DNA of 64,000 bases. It comes from Naegleria gruberi (Eukaryota). A model generated the notes under the pieces. That model saw nothing but the letters and a program-made list of their open reading frames with translations. It was not told the DNA's origin and searched no databases. Both the position numbers and the translations under genes were made by a program. The stretch lies in assembly GCA_000004985.1 (NCBI GenBank), contig GG738918.1; one strand, written 5' to 3'. Positions 277 through 27,599 of this stretch are shown here, one piece after another (position 1 is the stretch's first letter; each line of letters begins with the position of its first letter).

Positions 277-2544
277 ATGTCATCACAATTGCGAATGGGA
301 TGCTGTTATTTCATAATGCTTTCCATCATTCTTTTGTATCATCATGTTTATTCGGTGGTGGCTCTTCAAAATTTTGAGACGAAAGTCCAAAGCATTTCTA
401 ATAATTTTCAAGTTATTCCAATAGAGAATTTAAAGGAAGGGAATGTAATTTATGGAGTTGCGGAATATAACTATGTATTCATTAGCAAATCTTTAAATAT
501 AACTAATCTGGAAATGTTACTTTCGTATATGAATACAACAGATAGAACTATTAGAAATTCAGCACCTCTACAATTCGGAATGGAAAGAAGTTTAACTCAA
601 TTAGTGGAAACATACTTTTACTATCAAAACATCTCATCCTATTCGATTTCTTTCATTTCATTTGCTCCACTAATTTGCAGAACTAGAAATCCATTCGAAA
701 TATTAAGTGGAATCATTACAAGTGAAAGCAGCTTTGCAGAACAAGTTAGATGCTACCGAGATAGAGTGAATACTCAAGAATCTACTCGATATATCAATTC
801 GAGAGATTTCATTCCAATACCTTTATTCCCAAATAAGGTAATTATTGGAAGAAATGTTTCAACTAGTAGTGAAATTAGTCAATATTCGGAAAGTGATTTG
901 AATTCTCTTGAAGTGAGCATACTCCCATTGACATTGGATTATGAAAAAAGTGGTTGCAAGAGCAATCCTCAAAAATTTGATGCACTGAGAATTTCACTCA
1001 CTCGTGGAATTTCAAATTTCACCAATTTTGATTTGGAATGGATGAAAAATGTGGCTGGTGTGAAGGAGTTGAATTATGATAGATCATTATATGAATATTT
1101 ATTTCAGAGATTTGTGAATCGAAATAATTTACAAAATTTAACAAATAGTATTGAAATTTCACAAAGTTTACTTTCTTCTGATTGCTATTATTGTAATTTT
1201 GGATCTTTTGGAGATCCGAGAGAAACATTGACTGATTTGTGGATTATTCCAATAGCTGTGCTTACATTGGTGTATTTTATTTTATTATTTGCTACAAAGA
1301 GTTATTCGAAACCTTATCTTCAAAGAAGATTGGTAGTACCTTACCTGTTGCCTATTTGTAATTTACTATTTGAGGCTCTATCAGTGGATTCTCTATTGGT
1401 TCTGGTTTACAATTGTGAACCGAAATATTTGTTGATTTCTGTATTCTTTGGAATTATCATGATTTTCCTTTACATGATAACAGTTATTCGATTCTATTAT
1501 TTGAGAAACCTTTACAAAATTGTATCAGATTCTAAATTTTACAAAGTTCACAAATATTTAACCTCTACATCATTTGGAATTGGTTTCACACTCATAATGT
1601 CAGCTCTCTTAACAATCATTTTCATGGTTCCTGTATTTGCAACATTGAGCTTTGAGACTAACATTATTTATATTTCTCAAAATGTGACAAATGCAAGTTA
1701 TGTGGTCATTGGAAGTGCATTTGCGTTGGCTGCTAGTGTTGTTGATGCAATTTTGAACAGAAAAAAGATTTCCAAAAATGGAATACTCTATTATTTATTT
1801 GCAGATGATCCTCTTTATGTGAGAATTGACTTGTTTTTGACTGGTATTATCATTATTATCATTCTACTCACAATTGTCTTCCAATTATTCGAATTGCTAT
1901 ATTTGGTGGGAGTTGTTAGAACTCTAGTTACAATAATGGCTCTAATGATAAGTGGAGGAACAGCAATTATAGCAGAAATGATAAGAAGATTCGTATATAG
2001 AAATAGAAAGATAACAGAGAATGATTCAGATTTGGAAAAACATCTTTCTCAAAGCAGCGACTTTTTTGAGCTATTCCAAGAATATGCATCGAAAGAGTTT
2101 AGTTTGGAGAATATCATGTTCTTTGATATTATTCACGAAATCAAAACCGAATATGTAACAGTGGAAACTATGAAACACATTGAGGAAAACTTTATGAGAA
2201 ATTATTCCAAATATGAGGTGAATATTTCCTTTTCTTCTAGGAGAAAGTTTTACGAATTGTTTGATACAATGGAATTCAAAGTAGACAAAATGGAAGTATC
2301 AAGTTCAGAAATGAATTTATTGAGTGGTAGAGCTTCTATGAAATTATCAACATCAGACATGTCTCAATTGAGTATTACAGAATCTAAGAAATCATCTAAT
2401 ATCACTCTAAAGCAATTGAAAGATGCAGTCTATATGGACATTATCGGAAATATGAAAGATACCTACGGAAGATTACAATTAACACCACAATTTGCCAAAT
2501 GGGAATCAGTTTACAATTTACAAAATAAGGCAGCAATTATTTAA
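277..2544 (+). CDS. Receptor-like protein: signal peptide, ~300 aa N-glycosylation-rich ectodomain, 7 predicted TM helices, C-terminal RGS domain (7TM-RGS)
   Basis: 755 aa uninterrupted ORF. It has an N-terminal hydrophobic signal, a cluster of hydrophobic helices at roughly aa 325-570, and an RGS-box-like segment FFELFQEYASKEFSLENIMFFDIIHEIK. Architecture is analogous to plant RGS1 and fungal GprK-type 7TM-RGS proteins. Confidence 0.65.
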   Translation: MSSQLRMGCCYFIMLSIILLYHHVYSVVALQNFETKVQSISNNFQVIPIENLKEGNVIYGVAEYNYVFISKSLNITNLEMLLSYMNTTDRTIRNSAPLQFGMERSLTQLVETYFYYQNISSYSISFISFAPLICRTRNPFEILSGIITSESSFAEQVRCYRDRVNTQESTRYINSRDFIPIPLFPNKVIIGRNVSTSSEISQYSESDLNSLEVSILPLTLDYEKSGCKSNPQKFDALRISLTRGISNFTNFDLEWMKNVAGVKELNYDRSLYEYLFQRFVNRNNLQNLTNSIEISQSLLSSDCYYCNFGSFGDPRETLTDLWIIPIAVLTLVYFILLFATKSYSKPYLQRRLVVPYLLPICNLLFEALSVDSLLVLVYNCEPKYLLISVFFGIIMIFLYMITVIRFYYLRNLYKIVSDSKFYKVHKYLTSTSFGIGFTLIMSALLTIIFMVPVFATLSFETNIIYISQNVTNASYVVIGSAFALAASVVDAILNRKKISKNGILYYLFADDPLYVRIDLFLTGIIIIIILLTIVFQLFELLYLVGVVRTLVTIMALMISGGTAIIAEMIRRFVYRNRKITENDSDLEKHLSQSSDFFELFQEYASKEFSLENIMFFDIIHEIKTEYVTVETMKHIEENFMRNYSKYEVNISFSSRRKFYELFDTMEFKVDKMEVSSSEMNLLSGRASMKLSTSDMSQLSITESKKSSNITLKQLKDAVYMDIIGNMKDTYGRLQLTPQFAKWESVYNLQNKAAII

Positions 2545-2547
2545 AAA

Positions 2548-3935
2548 ATGAATGAAGAAGAAACAAGCCCAACCGTCCTATCATTTGATCCATCATCTTG
2601 TGATCAAAAAGTTGCTTTAAGCTTGCTGAATCAGCAAGATGATTTAATGATTAGTGTATTTGAGTTTTTCTTTGGATCGGAAATATTAATACAAATAAGA
2701 TTGGTGTGTAAAGAGTGGTATCAATTATCTACAAAGGTTCCTCTCTATTTTCATTCATCTCCTCCCGATTATGATTTGGATACATTGGCTCTCTGTGAAC
2801 ATCTTACCCATCAAAATGAATTTACAAATATTGCATCAATTATTTGTTGTTCGCATCATTGGGGTAAGTAATCACATAAATTTTAATATATTTATGCAGG
2901 ACATGTATAATTGATTTAATTGATTGATATTTATTAGGAGAGATGAATGAGGAGAAGATGCAAATATTTTCACATCCACATTGCTCCAGAATGAAACGAT
3001 TAATTATTGGTCTGCAAGATTTAAAGATCTTTAATTCTAATCTCTCTAATTTGACTGATCTTGACCTGTACGAAACAAATTTAGATATGGAAGGCATAGA
3101 TAAATTGATTCAATTGAAACATTTGACTAGATTGAACATTCAATATAGTTCTGCCGATAGTTGTGAACCAATACTTGCAATGTTTGCAAATACTAATTGG
3201 AAAAAATTGAAATCACTAAACTTGCTTGCATTAATAGTGAAAGAGAAAAAAGTGCCATTAATCAAAGACGTTGAAATTGTTCCCTGTGGATTCAAACCAG
3301 AGCTAGAAAAGCTGGTCCTTGCAGAAAGTCAAATCTCTGGAAATTTGCTTAAACATCTTCTTAATTGTGAGATTCTATCAAATTTACAAATCTTGGACTT
3401 GAGCTACTTGTGCTTTGTATACAGCAATTCATCTATTCATAATTTAGATGGAGTACTTGCAATTGCCAACTCTAAATGCTTGAAAAATTTGAGGATTTTA
3501 AAATTGTATCAATCTTATATGGACAGTGATTGTATTAAACTAATTGCTGAGAGAGGATGTCAGACACTTCCTAATCTTCAATCATTGGATTTGCGAATGG
3601 GCCAACTTGGAGATGAATCATTTGAGAAAATTATGGAATATGAATTTATGCAAAATTTGGAATTATTATTTGTCATGTTGAGTGCAGAAAATAACAATTC
3701 TTACTTTTTGACCACTGTTTCTGCAAAGGCAATACTAAAGAATTCAAAGAAAATGAAGAAATCTCTATATGAAGCATATGAATATTATGTTCATGTAGGT
3801 GGCATTATTGATATTGAGAGAGATTATCAAAATTATCAAGTGGAAGAAGGTCCAAAATTGTTAGGAGCCATCGTTAATCATGGAAGTGATTGGGACTATG
3901 GTGTTGATGAACTAGAATTGTTATCCGAATCATAG
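2548..3935 (+). CDS. F-box-like / leucine-rich repeat (RNI-type) protein, 2 exons (2548..2863, 2938..3935; intron 2864..2937, phase 1)
   Basis: Exon 1 ends ...HHWG at a gtaagt donor at 2864. Acceptor ttattag at 2937 restores frame into ORF 2943..3935. The F-box-like motif is LMISVFEFFFGSEILIQIRLVCKEWYQLS. LRRs include LQSLDLRMGQLGDESFEKI. Confidence 0.55.
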
Positions 3936-4101: not shown

Positions 4102-5199
4102 TCAAACATCAATGCAAACAAGAAATTTTAAAGAGGTTAGTGATGTTAATAATGTGACTCCTTCAGCACCAATTCTATTGTTACCAATATCAAGTGATGT
4201 CAATTGTTTCATTTCACTTATGAATTTGACTCCTTCAGCACCAATTTGATTTGCAGAAGCAGCAAGTGATGTTAATTGTTTAAGTTCACTTATTGATTCA
4301 GCTCCTTTTACACCAATTTGATTCGCAGAAATAGCAAGTGATGTTAATTGTTTAAGTTCACTTATTGATTTGGCTCCTTCATCACCGATTTGATTCGCAG
4401 AAATATAGAGTAATGTTAATTGTTCCAGTTCACTTATTGATTTGGCTCCTTCATCACCAATTTGATTTAGACAAATATCAAGTGATGTTAATTGTTTCAT
4501 TTCACTTATTGAATTAGCTCCTTTTACACCAATTCCATTATAGCATATATCAACTGATGTTAATCGCTTCATTTCACTTATGAATTTGACTCCTTCATCA
4601 CCAATTTGATTTAGACCAATATAAAGTACTGTTAATTGTTTCATTTCACTTATTGATTTGGCTCCTTCGTTACCAAATTTGTTGCTACCAATATTAAGTG
4701 ATGTTAATTGTTTCATTCCACTTATGAAATTGGCTCCTTTATCACCAATTTCATTGTTAGAAATATTAAGTGATGTTAATTGCTTCATTTCACTAATTGA
4801 TTTAGCTCCCTCTACACCAACTTGATTACAATAAATATCAAGTAATGTTAATTGTTTCATTTCACTTATAAATTTGAGTTTTTCTATGGGTTGAAGCAAC
4901 CAACAAGAAAATTTAACATTGACAATACTATTCACGAATTGACTTTTCATGCATAATTCAATTCTTTTTTCTGTAAGATTCTTTTTAAATTGAATGACAA
5001 GTTTTGCTCGTTCCTTGATCACATGAAAGAATTGTTTTGAAATTAGAGAACAATTTTGCAAAATAAAACACGAATCATCAATCATGGAAATGATTTCAAA
5101 ACAAACATCATCCGAAAATATAACATCATTGGAAAATACTTGTCGTTGGAGTTTTTGCAATTTTTGCACAAGATTTTTCTGATTTGGTGCCTCTTTCAA
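4102..5199 (-). CDS. F-box-like N-terminus + RNI-type LRR protein with ~10 tandem 24-aa repeats (EMKQLTSLDIxxNxIGxEGAKxIS)
   Basis: 365 aa ORF. N-terminal FSDDVCFEIISMIDDSCFILQNCSLISKQFF is F-box-like. Near-identical 24-aa repeats follow. It is a paralog of 26436..27599. Confidence 0.7.
   Translation of the reverse strand: MKEAPNQKNLVQKLQKLQRQVFSNDVIFSDDVCFEIISMIDDSCFILQNCSLISKQFFHVIKERAKLVIQFKKNLTEKRIELCMKSQFVNSIVNVKFSCWLLQPIEKLKFISEMKQLTLLDIYCNQVGVEGAKSISEMKQLTSLNISNNEIGDKGANFISGMKQLTSLNIGSNKFGNEGAKSISEMKQLTVLYIGLNQIGDEGVKFISEMKRLTSVDICYNGIGVKGANSISEMKQLTSLDICLNQIGDEGAKSISELEQLTLLYISANQIGDEGAKSISELKQLTSLAISANQIGVKGAESISELKQLTSLAASANQIGAEGVKFISEMKQLTSLDIGNNRIGAEGVTLLTSLTSLKFLVCIDV
4120..4870. 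repeat. 72-bp coding tandem repeats (LRR units) inside gene 4102..5199
   Basis: Repeated ...caattgtttcatttcacttat...ccttcatcaccaatttgatt... units are visible in the DNA at a 72 nt period. Confidence 0.7.
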
Positions 5200-7278: not shown

Positions 7279-8979
7279 TTACAAGGAGGCGAATACTTTT
7301 CTCACAAAATTTCCATTTACAAACATTGGAGAAGAAGATGAAATATATAATCCATCATATTCTAACTCAAATCTTCTCTGAATCCAAATATTTACAATTC
7401 CTCTATCTTGCCATGCGACATTTTGTTTCCCCTTGTTGGCATGTCTATCTGAAAGATAACCAGAGGAAAGAGCTGCCACTTCTGATAAATCTTCCTTGAT
7501 TGTTGATTTTCCAGATTCCCAATAGTACAGACAATGACCATTTCGTTCCACACACTTTCGAATAAAAAGTGAATCGATTGGAGGAATGAACGAAAGTACT
7601 AATTGAGGATTTTTCTCCACAATATCAAGAACAAACCCTTCATCCTCCATAAATTCATTTTCCAAAGATTTCAACTTTCCAGTGCTTGCATATTTTACAA
7701 TTATCTCCTTATCCTTTTTTAGTCTTTCACTAATGTGAGAAAACATTCCTGGAAAAAGTTCAATATTTTTCATAACGAATTCCTTGTCGTCTCTTAATCT
7801 ATCGGAAGCATACTCAAAATTAATTGATGACTGTTGCATTAAGGCACACGAAACGACCTGTTCGTCATCCCTTAATCTTTCAGAAGTTTCGGATAATCTA
7901 TTCGAGGGAAATTTCAGACATTCCAAAACAAATTCCTTGTCGTCTTTGAGAATTGGTGGTGCATCTCTAAGGGTATGTCTGTAAGTTGTTAAAGAATTCA
8001 ATAAAAATTGTCTTTCCGATCGTAACTCCAAATCTTTGCAAGTTTCGAATGCTTTTGCATCATATTTAACCCATTCCATTCGAAACTCTCTACTTTGCTT
8101 CAAAGATTGTGGTATGAATACCCTTACATTAGGTAACAATTTCAAAACAAATTCTTGATCTATTTTTACCGAATCAGGTAAATATTTAAATAAGGAAGGT
8201 TTCGTTTTCACACCACTCAAAACTAAACTCTTAATATCTTCCACAGAATATTTTAAGAGTTCTTTTCTAACAAGAACTCTTTCAATTATTGAATCACTTG
8301 CATACTGTAGTGTTGTCTTATCTTTTGTAATGGCTCTCAAAACAATCTCTTCATCATTCCTAAATAAATCTTTCGAATATTTCAGAGCTTGGGGATTATG
8401 CTCAATTACAGAAATATGAAAATCTCTATCACAAGGAATAAACCTTAATAGTGAAATATTCTTTTTACAAGCTTTCTTAAGCAATTCAATGTCAAATCCA
8501 TCAATTTTTATCAAGTATCGAATAATTTCTGGATTCAACTCTACCAACCGATTCAATTTTAAATCTTTGGGTATATATTCCTTCTCCTCTTGTTTTTCTC
8601 GTTGTAAAAATCGAAAAGTTTGATAATTTTCTTGAATCGCTCGCTCAATAAATGAAATTTTACATTTCCAAGTTTCGTCCAAACTCGAGAATAAATAATC
8701 AAATTCATGATCACTCTTTCCTCTCAAAAAAAAGAAAACAAACTCTTCATCGGCACCTTCTTTTAACAATAAATGTTTTAACAGAGGAGGATATTTCATC
8801 AAGACATGACAATCCCTCAGAAACTCCACTGGAATCAGATAAATATTCGAATATTTTCCACTCAATATTTCTTCCCGTTTCCGACAATATTTAGTGAAGG
8901 CACTTGTTTGCCGAGTGTATTTTCCCAGCAGTAACTTGGATCTGAAACTCATGTCCAGAAACAAGATGGTTTCGTCCAT
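7279..8979 (-). CDS. DUF4116-like repeat protein (tandem ~35-aa repeats LRDDKEFVxxxL...YAS)
   Basis: 566 aa ORF with repeated xDKEFVLECLK / DEQVVSCALMQQSSINFEYASDRLRDDKEFVMKNIELFP motifs typical of the DUF4116 repeat family. Confidence 0.55.
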   Translation of the reverse strand: MDETILFLDMSFRSKLLLGKYTRQTSAFTKYCRKREEILSGKYSNIYLIPVEFLRDCHVLMKYPPLLKHLLLKEGADEEFVFFFLRGKSDHEFDYLFSSLDETWKCKISFIERAIQENYQTFRFLQREKQEEKEYIPKDLKLNRLVELNPEIIRYLIKIDGFDIELLKKACKKNISLLRFIPCDRDFHISVIEHNPQALKYSKDLFRNDEEIVLRAITKDKTTLQYASDSIIERVLVRKELLKYSVEDIKSLVLSGVKTKPSLFKYLPDSVKIDQEFVLKLLPNVRVFIPQSLKQSREFRMEWVKYDAKAFETCKDLELRSERQFLLNSLTTYRHTLRDAPPILKDDKEFVLECLKFPSNRLSETSERLRDDEQVVSCALMQQSSINFEYASDRLRDDKEFVMKNIELFPGMFSHISERLKKDKEIIVKYASTGKLKSLENEFMEDEGFVLDIVEKNPQLVLSFIPPIDSLFIRKCVERNGHCLYYWESGKSTIKEDLSEVAALSSGYLSDRHANKGKQNVAWQDRGIVNIWIQRRFELEYDGLYISSSSPMFVNGNFVRKVFASL

Positions 8980-10711: not shown

Positions 10712-11194
10712 GATATTTTTTTTAATGTTGTTGTTATTAGTATCCAGTATTTACTAGTTTTCTAGTTTGGTGTGGAATAAAACAAGAAAAGACATGGTTC
10801 AATTATTGTTATTTGTTTAAATTTGAAATATATGTAACGGTTTTCTAAAGTGCCAAGAAATCACCTCGCTTATTAACCGTTTAAAAAAAAATTAATAAAA
10901 ATCTCAACAAAATTAATTACTTCCAGTTCATCATGAGTATTATTATTATTTCCAACTAATTTTAAGTTTAATATTATTTTTCAATTTTCATCATGTAACC
11001 CCACAAGAAGGATAACAACAATTCATGACCACCACCTCCAATTCCGGATGTTACCAACAAACATAGCACGATTACTATTTTACCTCATTCCGAAGATATA
11101 AAGTGTTGCTTGGATATTTATCAACACATCAATCGCACACAAGTTTTTGAAGATACACGATGTCAACAGGACGCTAAACAAATATCATCAAAAA

Positions 11195-14100
11195 ATGTTT
11201 GAAAGTGTTGTTGCCAAAGTATTGACAGCAACTCTTGGTGATTACATTGAAAATTTAGATAAACAATCATTGTCGGTTGGTGTGTGGAATGGTAAATTTA
11301 AACTGACAGATTTGATTGTTAAAAGATCGGCACTTGATTTGTTGGATTTACCTTTTTCTGTTGTGAATGGAACTGTTGGTTTGATTGAAGCTGATATACC
11401 ATGGAAGAGTATTTCAACTTCATCAATTAAAGTTCGATTGAGTGATATCATGTTGGTGGTTCAACCGAGGAGGTGTGAAAAAATTGATGAGACAAGTGAA
11501 AGGAAGAGACAACGAATGGTGAAACAGAGAAAGTTAACACAATATGAATTGAGAAGAAAATCAGAGAATGAAGTTTCGAATGCTGCAAGCCAAGCAACAA
11601 CAACAAATCAAACAGAAGAAACCAATGAAAAGAATGAAAAGAACGAAAAGAAACAAGAAGGATTTGTGTCAAGGTTGACTGAAACCATTATTAATAATCT
11701 TCAGATTGAGATTAATAATATTCACGTTAGATATGAAGATGATTCTGATGAAAGATTCAAAGTGGTTATGGGAGCAACACTTGAATCTCTTTCCATGTCA
11801 AGTTGTGATGTCAATTGGCAGGAATCTTTCTTGGCCACAACAGCAAAAACCTTTTTTAAAAAGCTTACATTGAGAAACTTATCAGTTTACATGAATAATA
11901 ATGAAACTGAATTGTTTTCATTGATGAAGAATGATTTGGATAATAGAAAATTCATTGAACACATGAGAAATATCATTGTGGAGAAGAAGAATTATAGGAG
12001 ATTTGTTTTGAGTCCAGTGAATGGAGAGTTATTGTTATGTATGCAGAAGGATGAAGCTTTGGATTTAGAAAGGCCAAGAATTAGTGCCGAGTTGAGGTTA
12101 GAATCGGTGAATGCAACACTGGACGAAAGGCAGTACAGAAATATTCAGTCAACTCTGGATTATATTACTCAGTTTATGGAAAAACCATTCGATAGACCAA
12201 TGTTTAATTCTCAAAACGAATGTCAACAATATTTATCTCAATCAACGGATGAGAAAGTTACCCAATTCAAAAATTACATGCTCATGTTCAAGAGGAGTAA
12301 GAAAGTGGCCTGGCTACAACCATTAACAAAAGATGAAGCTGAAAAATTATTGGAATTGGAAGATTTCATCCATGTTGATGACATTATGAAACTGAGAGAG
12401 GCAGCTTATCTTGAAATTCAAATTGAGGAACAAAAGTACAAACAAAAGAAGAAGGAATCAAGCTATTGGTCCAAGTGGTTCGGTTCAATTGATAAGACTA
12501 TTGAAGTTACCGAAGAGGATCGAGTGGAATTTTCCAAGCTATTTGGATTGGAAGAAGATAAGGGGCCATCTTTTATTCTTCCTCCACATTTTGTGAATTT
12601 TGCTCTTAAAGTTAAGATTAACACTATTGGAGTCAAGCTAAGGAATGCATCAACCAGAACTGCAGCACCTGATTCGGTTGCAGTATTTGAATTGACTCAA
12701 TTATTGGTCGATTTCAAGTTAAGAGTGGAGGGTTTTAATGTAGAGGTGAGTCTTGGAGGTGTATCCGGAGTTGACAATTTCTCTACAAGAAACGAACAGA
12801 GCATTTCAGAATATTACAACTTTGTCAAAACCAATTCTGTTGGAAATTTTGTCGAGTTTAAAATGGACTCTAATCCTATGAACGGAGTGGAGCAGATGGA
12901 TTGCAAGGTTGGCAATTTGAATGTGGTGTTGAATCTTTCTCTCATTCAAAAGATGTTGTCTATTTTCATTCTACCAAAATATTTACAAAGAAGTCAATTT
13001 ACAGCACCTTCATTACCAGATACTTTGAAAATTACAAAAAAGATACTCAATGCTGAGCTAGATAGTATTAGTGTAATCATTCCTGATACTCTTTCAGGTA
13101 AAGAATACTTTCAAGCTCATTTAGGACATTCTAAATTGACCAAAATTAATGAAAAGATTGATATTTCATTGACACCTATCAAATTGTTACACATTGGAGA
13201 AGCAGAGGATTTCACCATTATTCAGCCAACTGATTTCTCAATTTCTATGGTACAGACAATTGATCAAAATTTAATAGATGTCAAGTCCACTCCATTAATG
13301 GTTGATGTTAATCCTCAAGTGGTGACTCAATTGGTTCGGTTAGGAGATACTGTTTCTCATTTCACCAACAATCCATTCGGTTCTTCAAAGGAGAGTATTC
13401 TCATTGTAAATAATGTGCAAATGAAATTACCAAAACAAGAGGAACTTTCGTCAGCTCATATCCAATTACATGACGATGGTAGATTGTTAGTTTTCAAGGA
13501 AGAATCCAGTTTAGCTCCTTCACACAATATCTATTTCAACACTGTCCAATTCCATACGGAAACTAATAGTTTCAAAGTTGTGGATTTTGAATTTGTGCTT
13601 TCAAATGCAAAAACATTTGAAGAATGGAAGAAAAACTTGGAATCTCTATTGAACAAGAGCATTTCTAAAGCCCCACTTCCACCTGCCATAGAAACAATTG
13701 TAAATTTCAGTCTGGATAGTATCGTACTGAGAGCTCTGAATGATTCTTCATCGAGTGAAGTTGTTGCCATGGCACAAGCTAATGGGCTTCACACAAATGT
13801 ACTCGCGAGACCAAATGATAACCAGGTCAAGGTAACACTCCGAGAAATCACACTCCACGATGGAAATCAAAGAAAAATATTCTTCTCAGATCACAGTACG
13901 AATATTATTGAGATTAGTATTATTCTGTGCTCAAATAAGGAATCTGAATTTGCAAGCCAACATTCTTCTAAAATGTTCCTGAATATCAAGCTTTCAGATA
14001 TGAATTTGATTTTCAATACTGGAATTATCACAAAATTATTCCTATTTTCAAAGAAGATTAATTTTGAAAAGGAAAGTCCTATTGTAATGATTACAGAAGA

Positions 14101-17100
14101 TGATTCAGAGGATATTTTCAAACATGAAATGAAATTACAAGGAGAAATTTCTAAAATCCTTGTCGATTTGGAAAGAGAAGATAGTTCCAAGTTGGCCAAT
14201 TTCTCGCTTTCCAGTTTGAATGTAAATCTTTATATGGGAAAGAATAGTTTATCGTGTGAAGGAGATATTGGTACTGCCTATCTTTCACAACCTAATTCTA
14301 CATCTACTTATCCATATATTCTTTCTCCAAAATATTTGGGCGATCGCTCACTTATTAGATTTGCATACAGTCAAACAGATGATGAGCCAGTAATGAATAT
14401 AGAAAATTCAACCCGTGTTGTAAGAGGTTTCACCGAAAAGAAATCACTAAAGCTTGCAATGGCTTCAATTCAATTCATATTCATCAGCCAATTTATTGAG
14501 GACATTCAGAGTTATTTCCAAGATGGTCCACTATGGGAAGCTTTGGAAAATGGTGGAAAAATGATTAGTGACTATTCAAAAGAATTGATTTCTCAACAGG
14601 ATAAGAAATTGGAAATTATTTCTATGGACATTAAGGTGGAAGATCCAGTTGTTATTGCTCCAATACAAGACAATACTTTCACAGTTCACTTGGGAAATAT
14701 CAGATTAACCAATAAGGGAGACTGGGTTGAGAATGGAATTCCATGTGATAGCTATTCAATGATTTTCAATAGGATGAATTTACAAACTAAAATTAATGGA
14801 ATTGAAAAGACAGTGACTTCTCCATTCAATGTTGCTCTTGGATTGAAAAGAGTTCTCAAGAAGGATCACTTTCCAAGCATGTATTTGGATATTGAAATTG
14901 TACCAAAGGTTTTATTCACTTTGGAACATGCTCAGTATTTACTCTTGTTTCAACTTATTGATTCTTTCAATAAGAAACCAAGCGAAAGTAACGAAAAGAA
15001 ACAAGCAGAAGATTTGGAAAAGAAGGATAGTCTAACACTAATTGCTTTTATTAGAATCAAGTCCTTTGAGTTGGATGTAAAATCAGTAGCTGAGAATACT
15101 GATCTGGCCAAGTTGGAAGTTGAAGATTTCCAAATGAGATATTTCAAAGAACAATCTGGAGACAATATGCAATTCCTTGTCAAATCAATAATTGGAACTG
15201 ATCTAAGAGCTGAAAAGAATGAATATTTCACACAATTTATCACCACTCATTCCAAAACTACCAAGTGCTTGTCAGGTTCAATGATTACAAGAGGAAAGAA
15301 GAATGAAATTTCCCTCCAGATCAATAATCCAATTGTTACAATTATTCCTCAAGTATTTAAGGAGCTGCAAGAGTTCTTCTCCACAATGAAACTTGCTACA
15401 GAACCTCAAGAGGAAAAGAAACCAGAAAAGGAAATTAAGGAAGATGATTTAATGATATCTGTCAAATGTAACGATATTCGTGTAGCTCTTCCTGCCAATA
15501 ATTTCAATCAATTAGCATTCGTAATGAGATGCAAACAATTCTCAATGGAAGATATTCACAATTTCAATATTCATGATTTGGATCTTTCATTCCAAAAGAA
15601 TAGAAACAAATATGATGAGTACACCAACTATATTCTTCATCCAATTAGTTTGAATGTGAGCTATACGGATACTTTAATTATTCAGACAACTAGGGCAATT
15701 AATATTCGTATTTCAACAAGTATTATTCACCAAATTAGACAAGTTATGGACATGTTTACTTCTGAACTTTCCAAAATCAAAAAGACAACTGAAACCAAAT
15801 TGCCACCTTATCAAATTAACAACTTGCCTAATAATAAGGTAGATCTTTCGTATTTCGCTAACTTTTTTGCAAGTTTCAACCAAGAAACCAGATCTGAAAC
15901 CTTTAAATTTGAAGCATATCTAGTGTCAGGAATTTCCATTCTACTTGTCACTGATCGAAATGAAATTGACTTGCCAGCTCTACAACTCGATATTGAACAA
16001 GCGATCATTTCTGATTTCATTAGAATATCCAACATTCAACTATTGTGCTTCAATTTAAACTATGGAGTTTGGGAATCACTTGTGGAACCATTCACAGTTT
16101 CTGGATCTAGAAAAGGAAGCAATTACATTCTTGATATTCCAAAATGTTTATTGAATTTCAATAAGAATACATTCGAAATATTCAAATCTATAATGGAAAG
16201 TAAGGAAAGAAGTGTCATTACGAGAACTTTCTATCCAACAATTGTCAGAAACATGCATCCAACACCAATTACTATTAATGATCAATTACTGGAAGATGGT
16301 CAGGAATATATTGTGCAGGGAGAAGTTTCTTCTATTAGTTTCATTATTAATAATCAAACTTTCGTATTCTCCTTAAAGAAGAAACCAGGAACACATATTC
16401 TATCCTCTGAATGTTTACTCACTGTGGAAATTGTTGATGGAACAAGTTATTTTACCATTCATTCTTTGTATTCCATTGAGAATCAAACAGATGTCACCTT
16501 TGAAGTGTTGTACAATTCGAAACGATGTGGAAAACTTTCACCTAATCAAGTGAAATATCTTCCAAATGCTCCATTTGACAAGACCAATTTGAAAATTAGA
16601 CCATCCTATAGTGACGAGTACATGAGTCCAACATTCGAAGATCAAAATTCATCTCAATTCATCTTTATGAATAAGACTTCCAGTTTCTATTGTGAGTACG
16701 TGGAAGATATTGGACGAAACATGAAAAATTTCACAATTTCTCCACCTCTCAAACTAGAAAATAGAACTCCTATTGAATTGGACATGGAAATTAATGGAAA
16801 GAAATTTTCCTTACAAAAAGAATCCTCACTCTATTACTACTATGCCAATAAGGATTTCTCTGTGAACATTCTGACGAATAATCCTTCATTTAGTGATCAA
16901 TCATTCAGTGCCACAACCAGCAAAACCATGCAAATTTGTACGAATGGTAAAACTATTCCTCAAAAGCAAGAACCTAAAAAATCAAAATCATTTGCTGAGA
17001 TTGTCATTCGTGCACCTTTTTGGATTTTCAATGATTTGGAATTACCTATCAATATTAATGGAATTAATATTCTACCATTCAATTATACTACTATGAACAT

Positions 17101-19360
17101 CAATAATTTGACCATTTGTAGAGATGATAAAAACAAATTTACACCTAATTTGGATAAAATTCCACATGATACCATGGATTTGTGGAAATTAGGAGATAAA
17201 AGAATGGTTTACTATTTGAGAGAAACTGATGAGAGTAAATACATGTACCTCAGAGAAAGATATTACATTAGAAACAATACCAAATTTGATTTAAACATTA
17301 CTTTCGAGAAGAATTCATTCTCAGTCGCTGCAGGAAAGACACAACCTTATTCACATTACAATGATTCACTTCCTAAAATGAAAATCACTTTGGGAGAAGA
17401 GGAAAATATTGTGGAAACTAAATGTCAACAGGAATTGTCACTCAAATTTGGAAAATTCCTAAATGCCAAGCTTTTACTTAAGGAACAGGAAGGTTCAATG
17501 TTTGTGGTGATTAATGAAATACTATTGCCTGAATTTTACGTGGTCAACTCTACAGATTTGGAAATTGTAATTGATAAGGAAGGATTAGCTCCAAAAAATA
17601 TCAAACCCTATCTCAACATGCCCCAATCTGTTATAATTGACACCATTTCAGAGATTATCACCCTTAATAAGATTACAATGAATAAGGAAACAATGAAAAA
17701 GGTTGGAGATGAAGAAATTTATTACACACTCATTCCATATCAACAAGTAATCATTCTCCACATTCACAAAAAGAAAAAGACTGAGGAGAAGGATTATGAA
17801 CTGGCAGTAGATGTTACTTTCTATTCTATTGGAATTTCGATTATTGGTGAAAGTCAGGAATTGGCTTTTATTCATTTTGATCAATTATTTACTAAATTTG
17901 GAATGCTCAATACTCAATTTTGCGTTTATACTAAATTGCGTGGACTCCAAGTTGACGATCACAATGAACAAGAGGTCAACCCAGTTCAATTTGTGAATAT
18001 CAATTCTTCAGAGCAGAGTTTCATTGAATTTACAATAGAAAAGAATGGAAACTATTTTGAAACTGTTTCAGTAACTATCAGAGAAATGTTATTTAGCTCT
18101 AACAATATTTTCATTCAAAAGATGAGTGACGTATTCGCAAGTGCCATGAAACAAATGAAAGCAGTCCAAGAAACAAAACTAAATCAATTCTTGCAATATT
18201 TTGAAGTAGAGGAAAGTGAGAAAATGTTCTTTGGAAAGTTTGAACTCAATCCATTGAAAGTCGATGCTTCTTTCAAGGTGAAACCTTCCAATGATTTGAA
18301 ATACGATTTGGTTTATATTCTTTCCTCTTATGGAACTAAATTTACACACATTGAAAATGCCATAATTAGAATTTACGATTTCAAACTTCCTCAATCCTCA
18401 TTCGTTACCATGCAAGATGTTATGGAAAGAGTTGGAAAACACTACAAACGTCAAATCAAGTACAATTTATTGTCAATTATTGGATCGTTGAATACTTTTG
18501 GAAGTCCTATTCAATTATTTGGTGATTTGGCTTCAGGAGTTACTTCTCTATTTTATGAACCTGCAAATGCCATCACTGAAGGCCCACATATGTTCTTATT
18601 GGGTGTTGGTAAGGGATCTGTTGGATTTATTTCAAATTCTGTCAAGGGAGTAACTGGTTTCACATCAACAATTACAGGAACAGTTGGAAATACGCTTTCA
18701 ATCTTTACACTTGACAGAGATTTCGTCGAGAAGAGAGACAGGATTATGGAAAGGAAACCTGCCAATATTTTCCAAGGTATTGGACAAGGTATGCAAGTTC
18801 TCTTCACAGGACTCATTGATGGAGGTGTTGGAATTATTGCTCAACCAATTAAGGGAGCTAGAAAAGAGGGAGCTTTGGGATTGGCTAAAGGAGTTGTTCT
18901 TGGAATTGTTGGAATTCCTACAAAGCCAGTAGTTGGTATGATTGATTTTAGTATCAAGCAAATGCAAGGTATTCGAAACTTTAATCAATCATCACTTCAC
19001 AAAATTAGAGAAAATCCAAGAATGTTATTTAACGGAGTGATTAAACCATACAAGGAAAATATGGAATTGTTTTTGAGATTAATCCACAAATCCCAACAAT
19101 CAATAGAGTTTAATATTTTAATTCCTTTAGGAAAGACCTTGGCAATCACCAACAGACATTTGCTCATTCCACAATCAACCAACTCTAATGCACTTCAGGT
19201 TGTTGAATTGAATCAAGTGGAAGCTATTGAACAAGTAGATGATGATAATGTCAAGATTAGAGTGGCAAATCAAACAAGTTATTGTGTTTATTTGAATGTG
19301 GAGGCAGCTACTGTTCGTGCCTTGGTTGATAAGATGTTACGTGAGTTGAGTACTAATTAA
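11195..19360 (+). CDS. VPS13: VPS13-family bridge-like lipid transfer protein (chorein N-domain to VPS13/ATG2-type C-terminus), single exon
   Basis: The N-terminus MFESVVAKVLTATLGDYIENLDKQSLSVGVWNGKFKLTDLIVKRSALDLLDLPF matches the chorein-N motif of VPS13. The C-terminal region DLASGVTSLFYEPANAITEGP...GVGKGSVGFISNSVKGVTGF matches the VPS13 C-terminal (ATG_C-like) segment. It is a ~2720 aa uninterrupted ORF. The ATG at 11195 is chosen over the track start at 11147. Confidence 0.85.
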   Translation: MFESVVAKVLTATLGDYIENLDKQSLSVGVWNGKFKLTDLIVKRSALDLLDLPFSVVNGTVGLIEADIPWKSISTSSIKVRLSDIMLVVQPRRCEKIDETSERKRQRMVKQRKLTQYELRRKSENEVSNAASQATTTNQTEETNEKNEKNEKKQEGFVSRLTETIINNLQIEINNIHVRYEDDSDERFKVVMGATLESLSMSSCDVNWQESFLATTAKTFFKKLTLRNLSVYMNNNETELFSLMKNDLDNRKFIEHMRNIIVEKKNYRRFVLSPVNGELLLCMQKDEALDLERPRISAELRLESVNATLDERQYRNIQSTLDYITQFMEKPFDRPMFNSQNECQQYLSQSTDEKVTQFKNYMLMFKRSKKVAWLQPLTKDEAEKLLELEDFIHVDDIMKLREAAYLEIQIEEQKYKQKKKESSYWSKWFGSIDKTIEVTEEDRVEFSKLFGLEEDKGPSFILPPHFVNFALKVKINTIGVKLRNASTRTAAPDSVAVFELTQLLVDFKLRVEGFNVEVSLGGVSGVDNFSTRNEQSISEYYNFVKTNSVGNFVEFKMDSNPMNGVEQMDCKVGNLNVVLNLSLIQKMLSIFILPKYLQRSQFTAPSLPDTLKITKKILNAELDSISVIIPDTLSGKEYFQAHLGHSKLTKINEKIDISLTPIKLLHIGEAEDFTIIQPTDFSISMVQTIDQNLIDVKSTPLMVDVNPQVVTQLVRLGDTVSHFTNNPFGSSKESILIVNNVQMKLPKQEELSSAHIQLHDDGRLLVFKEESSLAPSHNIYFNTVQFHTETNSFKVVDFEFVLSNAKTFEEWKKNLESLLNKSISKAPLPPAIETIVNFSLDSIVLRALNDSSSSEVVAMAQANGLHTNVLARPNDNQVKVTLREITLHDGNQRKIFFSDHSTNIIEISIILCSNKESEFASQHSSKMFLNIKLSDMNLIFNTGIITKLFLFSKKINFEKESPIVMITEDDSEDIFKHEMKLQGEISKILVDLEREDSSKLANFSLSSLNVNLYMGKNSLSCEGDIGTAYLSQPNSTSTYPYILSPKYLGDRSLIRFAYSQTDDEPVMNIENSTRVVRGFTEKKSLKLAMASIQFIFISQFIEDIQSYFQDGPLWEALENGGKMISDYSKELISQQDKKLEIISMDIKVEDPVVIAPIQDNTFTVHLGNIRLTNKGDWVENGIPCDSYSMIFNRMNLQTKINGIEKTVTSPFNVALGLKRVLKKDHFPSMYLDIEIVPKVLFTLEHAQYLLLFQLIDSFNKKPSESNEKKQAEDLEKKDSLTLIAFIRIKSFELDVKSVAENTDLAKLEVEDFQMRYFKEQSGDNMQFLVKSIIGTDLRAEKNEYFTQFITTHSKTTKCLSGSMITRGKKNEISLQINNPIVTIIPQVFKELQEFFSTMKLATEPQEEKKPEKEIKEDDLMISVKCNDIRVALPANNFNQLAFVMRCKQFSMEDIHNFNIHDLDLSFQKNRNKYDEYTNYILHPISLNVSYTDTLIIQTTRAINIRISTSIIHQIRQVMDMFTSELSKIKKTTETKLPPYQINNLPNNKVDLSYFANFFASFNQETRSETFKFEAYLVSGISILLVTDRNEIDLPALQLDIEQAIISDFIRISNIQLLCFNLNYGVWESLVEPFTVSGSRKGSNYILDIPKCLLNFNKNTFEIFKSIMESKERSVITRTFYPTIVRNMHPTPITINDQLLEDGQEYIVQGEVSSISFIINNQTFVFSLKKKPGTHILSSECLLTVEIVDGTSYFTIHSLYSIENQTDVTFEVLYNSKRCGKLSPNQVKYLPNAPFDKTNLKIRPSYSDEYMSPTFEDQNSSQFIFMNKTSSFYCEYVEDIGRNMKNFTISPPLKLENRTPIELDMEINGKKFSLQKESSLYYYYANKDFSVNILTNNPSFSDQSFSATTSKTMQICTNGKTIPQKQEPKKSKSFAEIVIRAPFWIFNDLELPININGINILPFNYTTMNINNLTICRDDKNKFTPNLDKIPHDTMDLWKLGDKRMVYYLRETDESKYMYLRERYYIRNNTKFDLNITFEKNSFSVAAGKTQPYSHYNDSLPKMKITLGEEENIVETKCQQELSLKFGKFLNAKLLLKEQEGSMFVVINEILLPEFYVVNSTDLEIVIDKEGLAPKNIKPYLNMPQSVIIDTISEIITLNKITMNKETMKKVGDEEIYYTLIPYQQVIILHIHKKKKTEEKDYELAVDVTFYSIGISIIGESQELAFIHFDQLFTKFGMLNTQFCVYTKLRGLQVDDHNEQEVNPVQFVNINSSEQSFIEFTIEKNGNYFETVSVTIREMLFSSNNIFIQKMSDVFASAMKQMKAVQETKLNQFLQYFEVEESEKMFFGKFELNPLKVDASFKVKPSNDLKYDLVYILSSYGTKFTHIENAIIRIYDFKLPQSSFVTMQDVMERVGKHYKRQIKYNLLSIIGSLNTFGSPIQLFGDLASGVTSLFYEPANAITEGPHMFLLGVGKGSVGFISNSVKGVTGFTSTITGTVGNTLSIFTLDRDFVEKRDRIMERKPANIFQGIGQGMQVLFTGLIDGGVGIIAQPIKGARKEGALGLAKGVVLGIVGIPTKPVVGMIDFSIKQMQGIRNFNQSSLHKIRENPRMLFNGVIKPYKENMELFLRLIHKSQQSIEFNILIPLGKTLAITNRHLLIPQSTNSNALQVVELNQVEAIEQVDDDNVKIRVANQTSYCVYLNVEAATVRALVDKMLRELSTN

Positions 19361-26435: not shown

Positions 26436-27599
26436 TCACTTATCCTTCACAATTTCATTGTAACCTATATCAAGTGATGTTAACTGTTTCATTTCACTAA
26501 TGAATTTGACTCCTTCATCACCAATTTGATTTCCACCAATATAAAGTGATTTTAATTGTTTCATTTCACTTATGAATTTGGCTCCTTCAATACCAATTTG
26601 ATTGTTATAAATATTAAGTGATATTAATTGTTTCATTTCACTTATCAATTTGGCTCCTTCATCACCAATTTGATTTCCACCAATTTCAAGTGATGTTAAT
26701 TGTTTCATTTCACTTATTGGTATGACTCCTTCAACACCAATTTCATTTCCACTAATATCAAGTGATGTTAATTGTTTCATTTCATTTATAAATTTGGCTC
26801 CTTCATCACCAATTTGATTGTTATAAATACTAAGTGATTTTAATTGTTTCATTTCACTTATGAATCTGGCTCCTTCGGCGCCAATATGATTGTTATTAAT
26901 ACTAAGTAATGTTAAATGTTTCATTTCACTTATAGATTTGGCTCCTTTATCACCAATTCTATTGTTATTAAAATCAAGTGATGTTAATTGTTTCAGTTCA
27001 CTGATTGATTTTACTCCTTCATCACCAATTCCATTTCCACTAATATCAAGTGATGTTAAATGTTTCATTTCATTTATGAATTTGACTCCTACAACACCAA
27101 TTCGATTGTAACCTATATCAAGTGATGTTAATTGTTTCATTTCACTTATAAATTTGGCTCCTTCATCACCTATTCGATTTTCGCTAATATCAAGTGATTT
27201 TAATTGTTTCATTTCAGTTATGAATTTGACTTGTATAGAGTCAAGCAACCTTCTAGAAAATTTAAGATTAACAATACTATTCATAAATTGGCTTTTCATG
27301 CATAATTCAATCCTTGTTTCTGTAAATTTTTGTTTAAATTTAATAACAAGTTTTGAACGTTCCTTGATCACATTAAAGAATTGTTTTGAAATCAAGGAAC
27401 AATTATTCAAAATAAACCACGAATCATCAATCATGGAAATTATTTCAAAACAAACATCATCTGAAAATATTTCTTGTTCAAGCTTGACAACTTTTACTTT
27501 CCCTTCCATGTTAGTATTATTATTATTGATCATGAATAGCTCTTCCGAAATTAGTTGCTTTTCAAAATCTTGTCTTTGTTTACTCATTTTTTTTGGCAA
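26436..27599 (-). CDS. F-box-like + RNI-type LRR protein (paralog of 4102..5199), ~11 24-aa repeats
   Basis: 387 aa. The same N-terminal module (FSDDVCFEIISMIDDSWFILNNCSLISKQFF) and EMKQLTSLDI..N.IG.EG.KFI repeats are present. Confidence 0.7.
   Translation of the reverse strand: MPKKMSKQRQDFEKQLISEELFMINNNNTNMEGKVKVVKLEQEIFSDDVCFEIISMIDDSWFILNNCSLISKQFFNVIKERSKLVIKFKQKFTETRIELCMKSQFMNSIVNLKFSRRLLDSIQVKFITEMKQLKSLDISENRIGDEGAKFISEMKQLTSLDIGYNRIGVVGVKFINEMKHLTSLDISGNGIGDEGVKSISELKQLTSLDFNNNRIGDKGAKSISEMKHLTLLSINNNHIGAEGARFISEMKQLKSLSIYNNQIGDEGAKFINEMKQLTSLDISGNEIGVEGVIPISEMKQLTSLEIGGNQIGDEGAKLISEMKQLISLNIYNNQIGIEGAKFISEMKQLKSLYIGGNQIGDEGVKFISEMKQLTSLDIGYNEIVKDK
26440..27240. repeat. 72-bp coding tandem repeats (LRR units) inside gene 26436..27599
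   Basis: Periodic ...tgtttcatttcacttat... units are visible in the DNA. Confidence 0.7.

What the first reader, a model, noticed from the sequence alone, without database searches (positions are those of the whole stretch)
277..2544. 7TM-RGS receptor with a large (~300 aa) glycosylated ectodomain
Combining a seven-helix core with a C-terminal RGS box is known from plant RGS1 and fungal GprK-like proteins. This member adds a long signal-peptide-led extracellular domain with many NxS/T sites, suggesting ligand binding. With the G-alpha at 30.9-32.6 kb and the sensor-RGS pair, this 64-kb window encodes at least three distinct RGS architectures.
Basis: partly seen in the sequence, partly recalled or inferred. 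Interest (0 to 1): 0.55.

Follow-up and report, generated by a model that had tools for sequence, protein, structure and literature searches.

The report
Naegleria seven-helix receptor with RGS tail
This is an intact gene of the amoeba Naegleria gruberi for a cell-surface receptor that carries its own G-protein "off-switch" (RGS) domain; it belongs to a large receptor family already described in Naegleria, so it is a solid but fairly ordinary find.

Summary
The ORF at 277-2544 (+) is real: 755 aa, uninterrupted, 100% identical over aa 80-755 to Naegleria gruberi XP_002670164.1 ("predicted protein"). The RefSeq model starts at Met80 and so lacks the signal peptide.

**Architecture, all checked:**
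- Signal peptide, aa 1-29.
- A 290-aa alpha/beta plus helical ectodomain.
- A 13-aa linker, then a C-terminal RGS box.

**RGS box.** On its own it scores below Pfam's cut-off (19 vs 23.9 bits). The cause is a 44-aa Ser/Thr-rich insert. With the insert removed it passes (26.4 bits). The family profile hits RGS17 at E=4.5e-9. The G-alpha-contact residues are conserved.

**Family.** An exhaustive search finds 137 representative clusters. All named ones are Naegleria or Willaertia, and none is more than 35% identical to this protein. Bosch et al. 2022 described 28 7TM-RGS proteins in N. fowleri and showed GAP activity on self-activating G-alpha subunits.

**Unsupported side claims.**
- Sequon count is at chance (6 observed vs 5.1 expected).
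- Only two RGS architectures are verified in the window, not three.

The ectodomain is possibly derived from a type-II periplasmic-binding protein, but the evidence is only transitive.

Verdict: new member of a known kind.

The parts
277..2544 (+). Complete single-exon CDS (755 aa plus stop) of an N. gruberi 7TM-RGS receptor. RefSeq model XP_002670164.1 / NAEGRDRAFT_74835 begins only at Met80 (nt 514).
   Evidence: ORF list. 100% identity of aa 80-755 to P0001. Paralogs align from query aa 15-47 onward, so the upstream 79 codons are coding.
277..363 (+). Signal peptide, aa 1-29. n-region with R6, h-region CCYFIMLSIILL, c-region VVA|LQ.
   Evidence: Hydropathy. 29 of 44 aligned family members have a comparable N-terminal hydrophobic segment. 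Cleavage is inferred from the -3/-1 rule and was not tested.
364..1233 (+). Extracellular domain, aa 30-319. An alpha/beta core is followed by a helical part, with family-conserved Cys134 and Cys227, and Cys303-x-x-Cys306 just before TM1.
   Evidence: AlphaFold model with 44-sequence alignment, pLDDT mostly 80-95. Conservation. No Pfam, PDB or NCBIfam sequence match.
445..849 (+). Alpha/beta core of the ectodomain (aa 57-191). This is the part that aligns to the paralog segment carrying an NMT1/THI5-like (type II periplasmic-binding-protein) signature.
   Evidence: hhalign of the query group versus the P0061 group: 95.9%, E=5.4e-9. P0061 aa 73-145 hits Pfam NMT1 at 22.3 bits against a cut-off of 20.5. 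Foldseek gave weak hits 5oei and 8ovn. The direct query-group versus SBP profile comparison is not significant.
1234..1983 (+). Seven-transmembrane GPCR-fold domain, aa 320-569. It contains invariant Arg405 at the cytoplasmic end of TM3 and GG560-561 in TM7.
1744..1833 (+). Most conserved cytoplasmic element of the family, at the end of TM5 plus intracellular loop 3. The family consensus is DxIxNRKxIKxKGxxxFLFFDDPFYxRIDL; the query reads DAILNRKKISKNGILYYLFADDPLYVRIDL. Asp511 is invariant.
   Evidence: Alignment A1 conservation.
2023..2541 (+). Cytoplasmic RGS box, aa 583-755, tethered about 13 aa after TM7. G-alpha-contact motifs are KEFSLEN (606-612), YEVN (646-649) and DTYGR (728-732).
   Evidence: Pfam RGS 19 bits native, 22.1 bits for the tail alone and 26.4 bits with the insert removed. 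Aligns end-to-end with RGS10. Family profile versus RGS17 E=4.5e-9. Linker statistics.
2269..2400 (+). 44-aa Ser/Thr-rich insert (14 S/T), predicted disordered, between RGS helices alpha6 and alpha7.
   Evidence: pLDDT below 50 for aa 683-706. The spacing N649 to N725 is 77 aa here versus 35-41 in the shortest paralogs.

Best explanation
The ORF encodes a plasma-membrane receptor of the heterolobosean (Naegleria/Willaertia) 7TM-RGS family.

**Layout.** A cleaved signal peptide leads a 290-aa folded ectodomain outside the cell. A GPCR-fold seven-helix bundle follows. About 13 residues after TM7 comes a cytoplasmic RGS box.

**Shown here.**
- The architecture and the membrane topology.
- The GPCR fold of the seven-helix domain.
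- The RGS identity of the tail.
- Conservation of the residues that RGS proteins use to contact the switch regions of G-alpha.
- Membership in a large, fast-diverging paralog family.

**Inferred mechanism.** The mechanism is modelled on AtRGS1 and on the N. fowleri 7TM-RGS proteins, whose isolated RGS domains are GAPs. The tethered RGS box would accelerate GTP hydrolysis on one or more of Naegleria's many G-alpha subunits. Some of these exchange nucleotide spontaneously, so at rest they would be kept off. An extracellular cue sensed by the ectodomain would change the seven-helix bundle. The invariant TM3 arginine and the highly conserved intracellular loop 3 are the likely transmission elements. 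This would alter the access or activity of the RGS box and so release or tighten the brake. The Ser/Thr-rich disordered insert in the RGS box is a plausible phosphoregulatory site. The ligand is unknown.

The confidence given (0.6) is for the whole statement including the inferred mechanism. The architecture alone I rate at about 0.9.
For: - **ORF and identity:**
- **Topology:**
- **RGS:**. Columns E611 and N725 are invariant. Columns E607, S609, N612, E647, N649, D728, T729 and R732 are at least 90% conserved. By the RGS10 alignment and established RGS4-Gi-alpha1 structural knowledge, these correspond to RGS4 E87/N88, N128 and D163/S164/R167.
- **Family:** 137 representative clusters, with 106 of 140 sequences carrying both the 7TM and RGS modules and 42 also carrying this ectodomain. 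All named members are from N. gruberi, N. lovaniensis, N. fowleri or Willaertia magna.
- **Biochemical precedent:** N. fowleri encodes 28 7TM-RGS proteins, and the RGS domains of Nf 7TM RGS2-4 accelerate GTP hydrolysis on Nf G-alpha2/3/5/7, including self-activating ones (PMC9283941).
- **Short linker:** the TM7-RGS linker is short and conserved in length (median 13 aa, n=97).
Against: - No experiment exists on this protein or on any close relative. The best paralog is only 31-35% identical.
- The characterised N. fowleri proteins are much longer (1215-2459 aa). I could not link them directly to this subfamily.
- The RGS box of this member is sub-threshold in Pfam as it stands and carries a 44-aa insert whose effect is unknown.
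- The RGS fold could not be confirmed by fold search. The top-60 and top-50 lists were filled by GPCR hits.
- Nothing shows that ligand binding modulates GAP activity. A conventional GEF role for the 7TM domain is not excluded.
Confidence: 0.6

Rival explanations
1. It is a conventional G-protein-coupled receptor. On ligand binding, the seven-helix domain acts as an exchange factor for a slow-exchanging G-alpha. The fused RGS box merely sharpens signal termination, as a built-in kinetic off-switch, rather than being the regulated output.
For: - The TM domain has a full GPCR fold.
- Arg405 at the cytoplasmic end of TM3 is invariant, and intracellular loop 3 is very conserved. These are the positions GPCRs use for G-protein coupling (established GPCR knowledge).
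- Naegleria has both slow- and fast-exchanging G-alpha subunits, and both types interact with 7TM-RGS domains (PMC9283941).
Against: - No 7TM-RGS protein has been shown to have exchange-factor activity.
- With an RGS box tethered only about 13 aa from TM7, a docked G-alpha would be deactivated almost at once.
- There is no sequence similarity to any Pfam GPCR family.
Confidence: 0.2
2. The RGS box is a G-alpha-binding or scaffolding module without GAP activity, used as an effector-type docking site or degenerate. The protein would then work as an adhesion or nutrient sensor that signals by other means.
For: - The Pfam score is sub-threshold, and there is a 44-aa insert within the box.
- Some RGS domains have lost GAP activity (statement in PMC3971589).
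- One of the four tested N. fowleri 7TM-RGS domains gave uninterpretable results, and another gave ambiguous GAP data.
Against: - All the classical G-alpha-contact residues are conserved in this member and across the family.
- The insert lies in a length-variable alpha6-alpha7 loop. From the known RGS fold this is on the side away from the G-alpha interface; that placement is an inference.
Confidence: 0.12
3. The ORF is a decaying or non-expressed paralog of a very large family. That would make it a recent pseudogene that merely keeps an open frame.
For: - There is no ortholog above 35% identity even in N. lovaniensis.
- One of six family-conserved cysteines is lost (F311).
- The SBP-like motif is eroded.
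- The RefSeq model is truncated.
Against: - The frame is open for 2268 nt in a 31% GC genome, where stops are frequent.
- Every invariant and nearly invariant family column is retained.
- The model folds confidently.
Confidence: 0.05

Closest known systems
Naegleria fowleri 7TM RGS proteins (Bosch, Jeck & Siderovski 2022, J Biol Chem; PMC9283941)
   Same: - Same genus.
- Same architecture: an extracellular N-terminal region, seven TM helices and a C-terminal RGS box.
- Same large paralog family (28 in N. fowleri).
- RGS domains with canonical G-alpha interface residues.
- GAP activity demonstrated for Nf 7TM RGS2-4.
   Different: - The four characterised proteins are 1215-2459 aa with EGF-like, lectin and GPS-type ectodomains. 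This protein is 755 aa, with a different ectodomain of about 290 aa that has no Pfam match.
- Direct homology of the TM cores was not tested. I could not obtain those sequences.
Arabidopsis AtRGS1 (plant 7TM-RGS)
   Same: The logic is the same: a seven-helix membrane domain fused to a cytoplasmic RGS box that acts on a self-activating G-alpha. Regulation by Ser phosphorylation is a possible parallel to the Ser/Thr-rich insert here.
   Different: - AtRGS1 has essentially no ectodomain and a longer TM7-RGS linker (my knowledge).
- None of the 20 hits whose source I looked up is from a plant. The other 117 carry no source name, so a plant hit cannot be excluded.
- Common origin of the two 7TM domains is untested, and independent fusion is plausible.
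Class C GPCR GPR158/GPR179 with RGS7-Gbeta5 bound in trans
   Same: - In both cases a receptor's output is control of an RGS GAP rather than G-protein activation.
   Different: - Here the RGS is fused in cis.
- There is no Pfam 7tm_3 match and no Cache or ANF-type ectodomain.
- The resemblance is of fold and logic, not demonstrated homology.
Bacterial NMT1/THI5/SsuA-type substrate-binding proteins (type II periplasmic-binding fold)
   Same: A paralog subgroup (P0061, P0050, P0026, P0038) keeps the hallmark 'SLKxKNITxxxDLxGKRVAV' strand-loop-strand motif. P0061 passes Pfam's NMT1 cut-off over profile positions 70-145. The query's ectodomain is homologous to that subgroup.
   Different: - In the query itself the motif is eroded (TIRNSAPLQFGME).
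- The direct profile comparison is not significant (E=0.44).
- Only about 25 residues precede the matching lobe, so a complete two-lobe Venus-flytrap is doubtful.
- The C-terminal half of the ectodomain is all-helical.

Membership tests
RGS domain (Pfam PF00615) | Sequence match to the RGS profile at or above the curated gathering score | tested here: inconclusive
   - Native protein: 19.0 bits, below 23.9.
- C-terminal 176 aa alone: 22.1 bits.
- With the 44-aa insert removed: 26.4 bits, above 23.9.
- Family profile versus solved RGS17: E=4.5e-9, with 27 RGS chains at E<=1e-3.
- 33 of 44 paralogs hit PF00615.
RGS domain (Pfam PF00615) | Conserved G-alpha-contact residues (RGS4 E87/N88, N128, D163, R167 equivalents) | tested here: met
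   E611-N612, N649, D728 and R732 are present. They are invariant or at least 90% conserved in the family. They align to the corresponding RGS10 residues. The RGS4 numbering comes from established structural knowledge.
RGS domain (Pfam PF00615) | Nine-helix RGS fold in three dimensions | tested here: inconclusive
   The AF2 model gives confident helices at 583-678 and 711-751 (pLDDT about 85-95). The fold-search lists (top 50 and top 60) were saturated by GPCR matches, so no RGS structural match was displayed.
RGS domain (Pfam PF00615) | GTPase-accelerating activity on a G-alpha subunit | not testable with these tools
   Requires biochemistry. The only precedent is in N. fowleri relatives (PMC9283941).
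7TM-RGS receptors (AtRGS1 / Naegleria 7TM RGS type) | Seven TM helices with N-terminus outside and C-terminus inside | tested here: met
   Hydropathy, AF2 helices, K+R 18 inside versus 1 outside, and a signal peptide at the N-terminus.
7TM-RGS receptors (AtRGS1 / Naegleria 7TM RGS type) | RGS box on the cytoplasmic C-terminal tail of the same polypeptide | tested here: met
   A single ORF with the RGS at aa 583-755, about 13 aa after TM7.
7TM-RGS receptors (AtRGS1 / Naegleria 7TM RGS type) | Homology of the 7TM core to AtRGS1 or to Nf 7TM RGS1-4 | not tested
- The one named N. fowleri hit looked up (P0129 and its cluster member P0141) matches through the RGS box only.
- Long N. lovaniensis and Willaertia paralogs (1188-1371 aa) do share this TM+RGS core.
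GPCR fold (7TM receptor superfamily) | Structural superposition on solved GPCR TM domains | tested here: met
   [not shown]
Class C GPCR | 7tm_3 sequence family, with a type-I (ANF/LIVBP) Venus-flytrap and a cysteine-rich domain | tested here: not met
   [not shown]
Type II periplasmic-binding protein (NMT1/THI5-like, PF09084) | Profile match of the ectodomain | tested here: inconclusive
   - Query and 21 close ectodomains: no hit.
- Paralog P0061: 22.3 bits, above 20.5, over 76 profile positions.
- Query group versus P0061 group: hhalign 95.9%.
- Query group versus SBP profile: E=0.44.
- P0061 group versus SBP profile: 93.5%, but not independent.
- Foldseek: weak hits to two type-II binding proteins.
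Adhesion GPCR | GAIN/GPS autoproteolysis motif before TM1 | tested here: not met
   No GPS Pfam hit. The pre-TM1 motif is S-x-C-x-x-C-x4-C, with the third Cys lost in the query.

The most novel reading that the evidence does not exclude
The ectodomain is a diverged substrate-binding-protein (type II periplasmic-binding fold) module. With a seven-helix domain closest in structure to class C receptors and an RGS box fused in cis, this subfamily would be a small-molecule-sensing 'GAP receptor'. It would be a cis-fused excavate counterpart of the animal GPR158-RGS7 arrangement. In that case the logic of a binding-protein sensor driving a 7TM domain to control an RGS arose independently, or very early, in eukaryotes.
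Probability: 0.3. Interest if true: 0.55.

Novelty: new member of a known kind. Interest (0 to 1): 0.3.

Why it matters
Naegleria has one of the largest G-protein toolkits of any microbe: 229 RGS genes and about 44 G-alpha genes in N. gruberi (PMC3971589, PMC8584482). It is also the only characterised lineage with both self-activating and exchange-limited G-alpha subunits (PMC9283941).

Members of the 7TM-RGS family are the obvious candidates for its environmental sensors, yet no ligand is known for any of them. This compact 755-aa member has a single, confidently folding ectodomain. That makes it a more tractable subject for ligand and GAP assays than the 1200-2500-aa proteins studied so far.

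The practical yield here is:
- a corrected gene model, which restores the signal peptide;
- a delineated subfamily ectodomain;
- a list of invariant cytoplasmic residues to mutate.

It does not change the current picture of G-protein signalling.

Tried and rejected
- **Single-sequence AlphaFold:** useless (pLDDT 37).
- **Word-indexed homolog search:** with the protein and with the 44-sequence alignment it returned only the protein itself.
- **The search for related loci on genome contigs:** That collection is prokaryotic anyway.
- **afdb50 fold library:** not available.
- **Ectodomain profile searches:** searches against PDB sequences, Pfam and NCBIfam gave only noise.
- **hhalign of the ectodomain profiles against a low-diversity E. 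coli SsuA alignment:** matched only the 20-residue motif (E=0.027), or nothing.
- **Link to the published Nf 7TM RGS1-4 through peptides deduced from their cloning primers:** no match among the hits.
- **Literature:** Anantharaman 2011 and Bradford 2013 are not held in the library.
- **Class C GPCR membership:** rejected, because there is no 7tm_3 or ANF hit.
- **Adhesion-GPCR membership:** rejected, because there is no GPS.
- **Functional linkage with the G-alpha gene 28 kb away:** no evidence beyond co-location in a genome crowded with such genes.
Full report
**What is there.** The window is Naegleria gruberi DNA, 30-38% GC. At exactly the reported coordinates there is one uninterrupted ORF, 277-2544 on the + strand, encoding 755 aa. 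Residues 80-755 are 100% identical to the N. gruberi 'predicted protein' XP_002670164.1 / EFC37420.1 / NAEGRDRAFT_74835 (676 aa).

The database model starts at Met80 (nt 514) and therefore lacks the first 79 codons. Those codons are coding, for three reasons:
- Paralogs align to the query from residues 15-47 onward.
- The alignment-based AlphaFold model places strands 44-48 and 57-70 inside the folded ectodomain at pLDDT 83-94.
- 29 of 44 aligned family members carry a comparable N-terminal hydrophobic segment.

The N-terminus reads as a classical signal peptide (R6, h-region CCYFIMLSIILL, VVA|LQ). Cleavage is inferred, not tested.

**Topology and the seven-helix domain.** Kyte-Doolittle analysis gives the signal segment plus seven hydrophobic helices between aa 320 and 569. 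The AlphaFold model built on a 44-sequence family alignment has mean pLDDT 81.4 and pTM 0.74. It shows seven long helices at the same places.

The loops predicted to be cytoplasmic contain 18 Lys+Arg and the extracellular ones contain 1. The orientation is therefore N-terminus out, C-terminus in.

The fold is therefore that of a GPCR. The preference for class C is small. There is no Pfam GPCR family match in the query or in any of 44 paralogs, so I do not file it in class C.

The family alignment shows an invariant Arg405 at the cytoplasmic end of TM3, within the consensus TVxRFxYLRNLY. It also shows a strikingly conserved TM5-end/ICL3 element, with the family consensus DxIxNRKxIKxKGxxxFLFFDDPFYxRIDL and Asp511 invariant. 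GG560-561 in TM7 is conserved too. These are the natural candidates for coupling the bundle to a cytoplasmic partner.

**The RGS box.** On the native sequence Pfam RGS scores 19.0 bits against a gathering score of 23.9 and covers only profile positions 6-76. The best solved relative is RGS10 at E=0.4.

The cause is a 44-aa insert (aa 665-708) with 14 Ser/Thr, predicted disordered (pLDDT below 50 for 683-706). It lies between helices alpha6 and alpha7. This is a length-variable spot in the family: the spacing N649 to N725 is 35-41 aa in the shortest members and 77 aa here.

With the insert deleted in silico:
- The domain scores 26.4 bits, above threshold.
- It aligns end-to-end with RGS10. KEFSLEN aligns to KEFSEEN, YEVN to QVN, and DTYGRL to DSYSRF.

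At family level the evidence is unambiguous. The profile hits RGS17 at E=4.5e-9 and 27 distinct solved RGS sequences at E<=1e-3. 33 of 44 paralogs hit PF00615.

The conserved columns E611/N612, N649, D728/T729 and R732 correspond to the RGS4 residues E87/N88, N128, D163/S164 and R167. Those residues contact the G-alpha switch regions in the RGS4-Gi-alpha1 complex (established structural knowledge; the numbering is from memory). The box starts about 13 aa after TM7, and this short linker is typical of the family (median 13, interquartile range 9-20, n=97).

I could not obtain a structural match list for the RGS part.

**The family.** An exhaustive HMMER scan of 1.84 billion representative proteins finds 137 clusters at E<=1e-3, of which 44 are at E<=1e-30. 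None besides the protein itself exceeds 35% identity over full-length matches.

I looked up the source of 20 of these representatives. Thirteen carry an organism name, always N. gruberi, N. lovaniensis, N. fowleri or Willaertia magna. The other seven come from unnamed metagenome contigs.

Using sub-profiles of the three modules on 140 sequences:
- 106 contain the 7TM core plus RGS.
- 42 of those also contain this ectodomain.
- Others carry much longer, unrelated N-terminal regions of up to about 950 aa.

The family is thus a modular, rapidly diverging receptor repertoire. This gene has no close ortholog even in N. lovaniensis.

**The ectodomain.** It folds confidently as an alpha/beta core (aa about 44-191) followed by helices (205-296). 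The conserved cysteines are C134, C227, C303-x-x-C306, a third pre-TM1 Cys that is Phe311 in this member, and C380 in extracellular loop 1. It has no significant match in Pfam, NCBIfam or PDB sequences, either alone or as a 22-sequence profile.

There is a consistent but only transitive trail to bacterial substrate-binding proteins of the NMT1/THI5/SsuA type (type II periplasmic-binding fold):
- The only two non-GPCR Foldseek hits in the top 50 are binding proteins of what I recall to be that fold. They are 5oei, which I recall as a TTT-family binding protein, and 8ovn, a GltI-based sensor. The fold assignment is from my knowledge.
- Paralog P0061 passes the Pfam NMT1 cut-off (22.3 vs 20.5 bits, E=1.4e-4) over aa 73-145.
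- P0061 and three relatives keep the motif 'SLKxKNITxxxDLxGKRVAV'.
- A tblastn of that segment against plasmids gives seven weak hits, five of which fall on this motif. The ORFs under H3, H4 and H5 are genuine NMT1-family binding proteins (164-177 bits). The ORF under H7 is a near-identical ortholog of the H5 ORF. H6 was not examined.
- With the P0061 group excluded, the query's ectodomain group aligns to the P0061 group at 95.9% probability, E=5.4e-9, over 177 columns.

Against this:
- The direct comparison of the query group with a binding-protein profile is not significant (E=0.44), although its best alignment is in the equivalent register.
- The E. coli SsuA-only profile sees just the motif.
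- Too few residues precede the matching lobe for a complete two-lobe flytrap.

I rate a binding-protein origin at about 60%.

- *'Glycosylated' / 'many NxS/T'.* The ectodomain has six sequons, against 5.1 +/- 2.0 expected from composition (P=0.40). The cytoplasmic tail has the same density. Across the family, sequons exceed shuffles in the ectodomain (265 vs 178 +/- 11) but also in the tail (106 vs 76 +/- 8). Only N247-F-T recurs, in 19 of 39 members. Glycosylation is plausible for a secretory-pathway domain but is not evidenced.
- *'Three distinct RGS architectures in the window'.* The G-alpha gene is confirmed as two exons, 30874-31569 and 31601-32581, on the minus strand. A CHASE4/HAMP/PAS-RGS protein lies at 48198-49988 (-). 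The neighbouring sensor at 51383-53023 (+) shows CHASE4/PAS but no RGS hit, with Pfam or with the family RGS profile. Two architectures are verified, not three.

**What is already known.**
- de Mendoza et al. 2014 counted 229 RGS proteins in N. gruberi and noted 7TM-RGS architectures in many lineages (PMC3971589).
- Bosch, Jeck and Siderovski 2022 reported 28 7TM-RGS proteins in N. fowleri, several with complex ectodomains. They showed that the isolated RGS domains of Nf 7TM RGS2-4 bind the transition-state form of specific G-alpha subunits, including self-activating ones, and accelerate their GTP hydrolysis. They stated that whether extracellular cues alter GAP activity is unknown (PMC9283941).

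The kind of protein is therefore known. What is added here:
- a corrected gene model;
- the definition of a compact subfamily with its own ectodomain;
- the structural placement of the TM core;
- the explanation of the weak RGS score;
- a tentative origin for the ectodomain.

**Mechanism.** The best-supported reading is a receptor-GAP. The tethered RGS box keeps one or more G-alpha subunits in the GDP state. An extracellular cue, transmitted through the bundle (Arg405, ICL3), changes that brake. The Ser/Thr-rich insert is a possible phosphoregulatory handle, by analogy with AtRGS1.

Shown: architecture, topology, fold, RGS identity, and conservation of interface residues. Inferred: GAP activity of this member, ligand regulation, and the direction of the effect.

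Rivals:
- a conventional exchange-factor receptor with a built-in terminator;
- a non-catalytic RGS scaffold;
- a decaying paralog.

**Verdict.** It is a new, previously uncharacterised member of a described Naegleria receptor family, so interest is modest (0.3).

Noticed in passing
window 277-513 versus 514: RefSeq model XP_002670164.1 (NAEGRDRAFT_74835) starts at Met80. It omits 79 codons that include the signal peptide and the first two strands of the ectodomain. The longer ORF is supported by paralog alignments and by the structure model.
   Followed up: yes
window 48198-49988 (-) and 50760-53023 (+): Two divergently oriented paralogous membrane sensors with weak CHASE4, HAMP and PAS matches. 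The first ends in a clear RGS domain (40.4 bits). The second shows no RGS hit, although its C-terminus is of similar length. Bacterial-type extracellular sensor modules fused to RGS are unusual and deserve their own look.
   Followed up: partly
window 30874-31569 and 31601-32581 (-): A G-alpha gene split by a 31-nt intron. It has about 160 aa of N-terminal extension before the G-alpha domain. It lies 28 kb from the receptor, and there is no evidence of functional linkage.
   Followed up: partly
window 2548-2871 and 2943-3935 (+): The next ORF's ATG lies only 3 nt after the receptor's stop codon. It looks like an F-box-like exon (LVCKEWYQLS) followed, after a short gap, by an ORF that looks leucine-rich-repeat-like by eye but has no Pfam match. 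This is probably one F-box/LRR gene with an intron.
   Followed up: no
window 7279-8979 (-) and 43631-45247 (-): Two proteins made of DUF4116 repeats (173 and 232 bits). Several LRR_6-type leucine-rich-repeat proteins are also present (4102-5199, 26436-27599).
   Followed up: no
window 46690-47235 and 47587-48147 (+): A eukaryotic aspartyl protease split into two ORFs, presumably by an intron of about 350 nt.
   Followed up: no
window 11147-19360 (+): A 2737-aa ORF with a VPS13-like N-terminal region (281 bits), as a single long exon.
   Followed up: no
family members P0040, P0074, P0091, P0102, P0139 (not in the window): The same 7TM+RGS core is combined with unrelated N-terminal regions of 540-950 aa in Willaertia and N. 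lovaniensis. One has a weak bacterial Ig-like (Big_1) match. The ectodomains of this receptor family therefore seem to be swapped modularly.
   Followed up: partly
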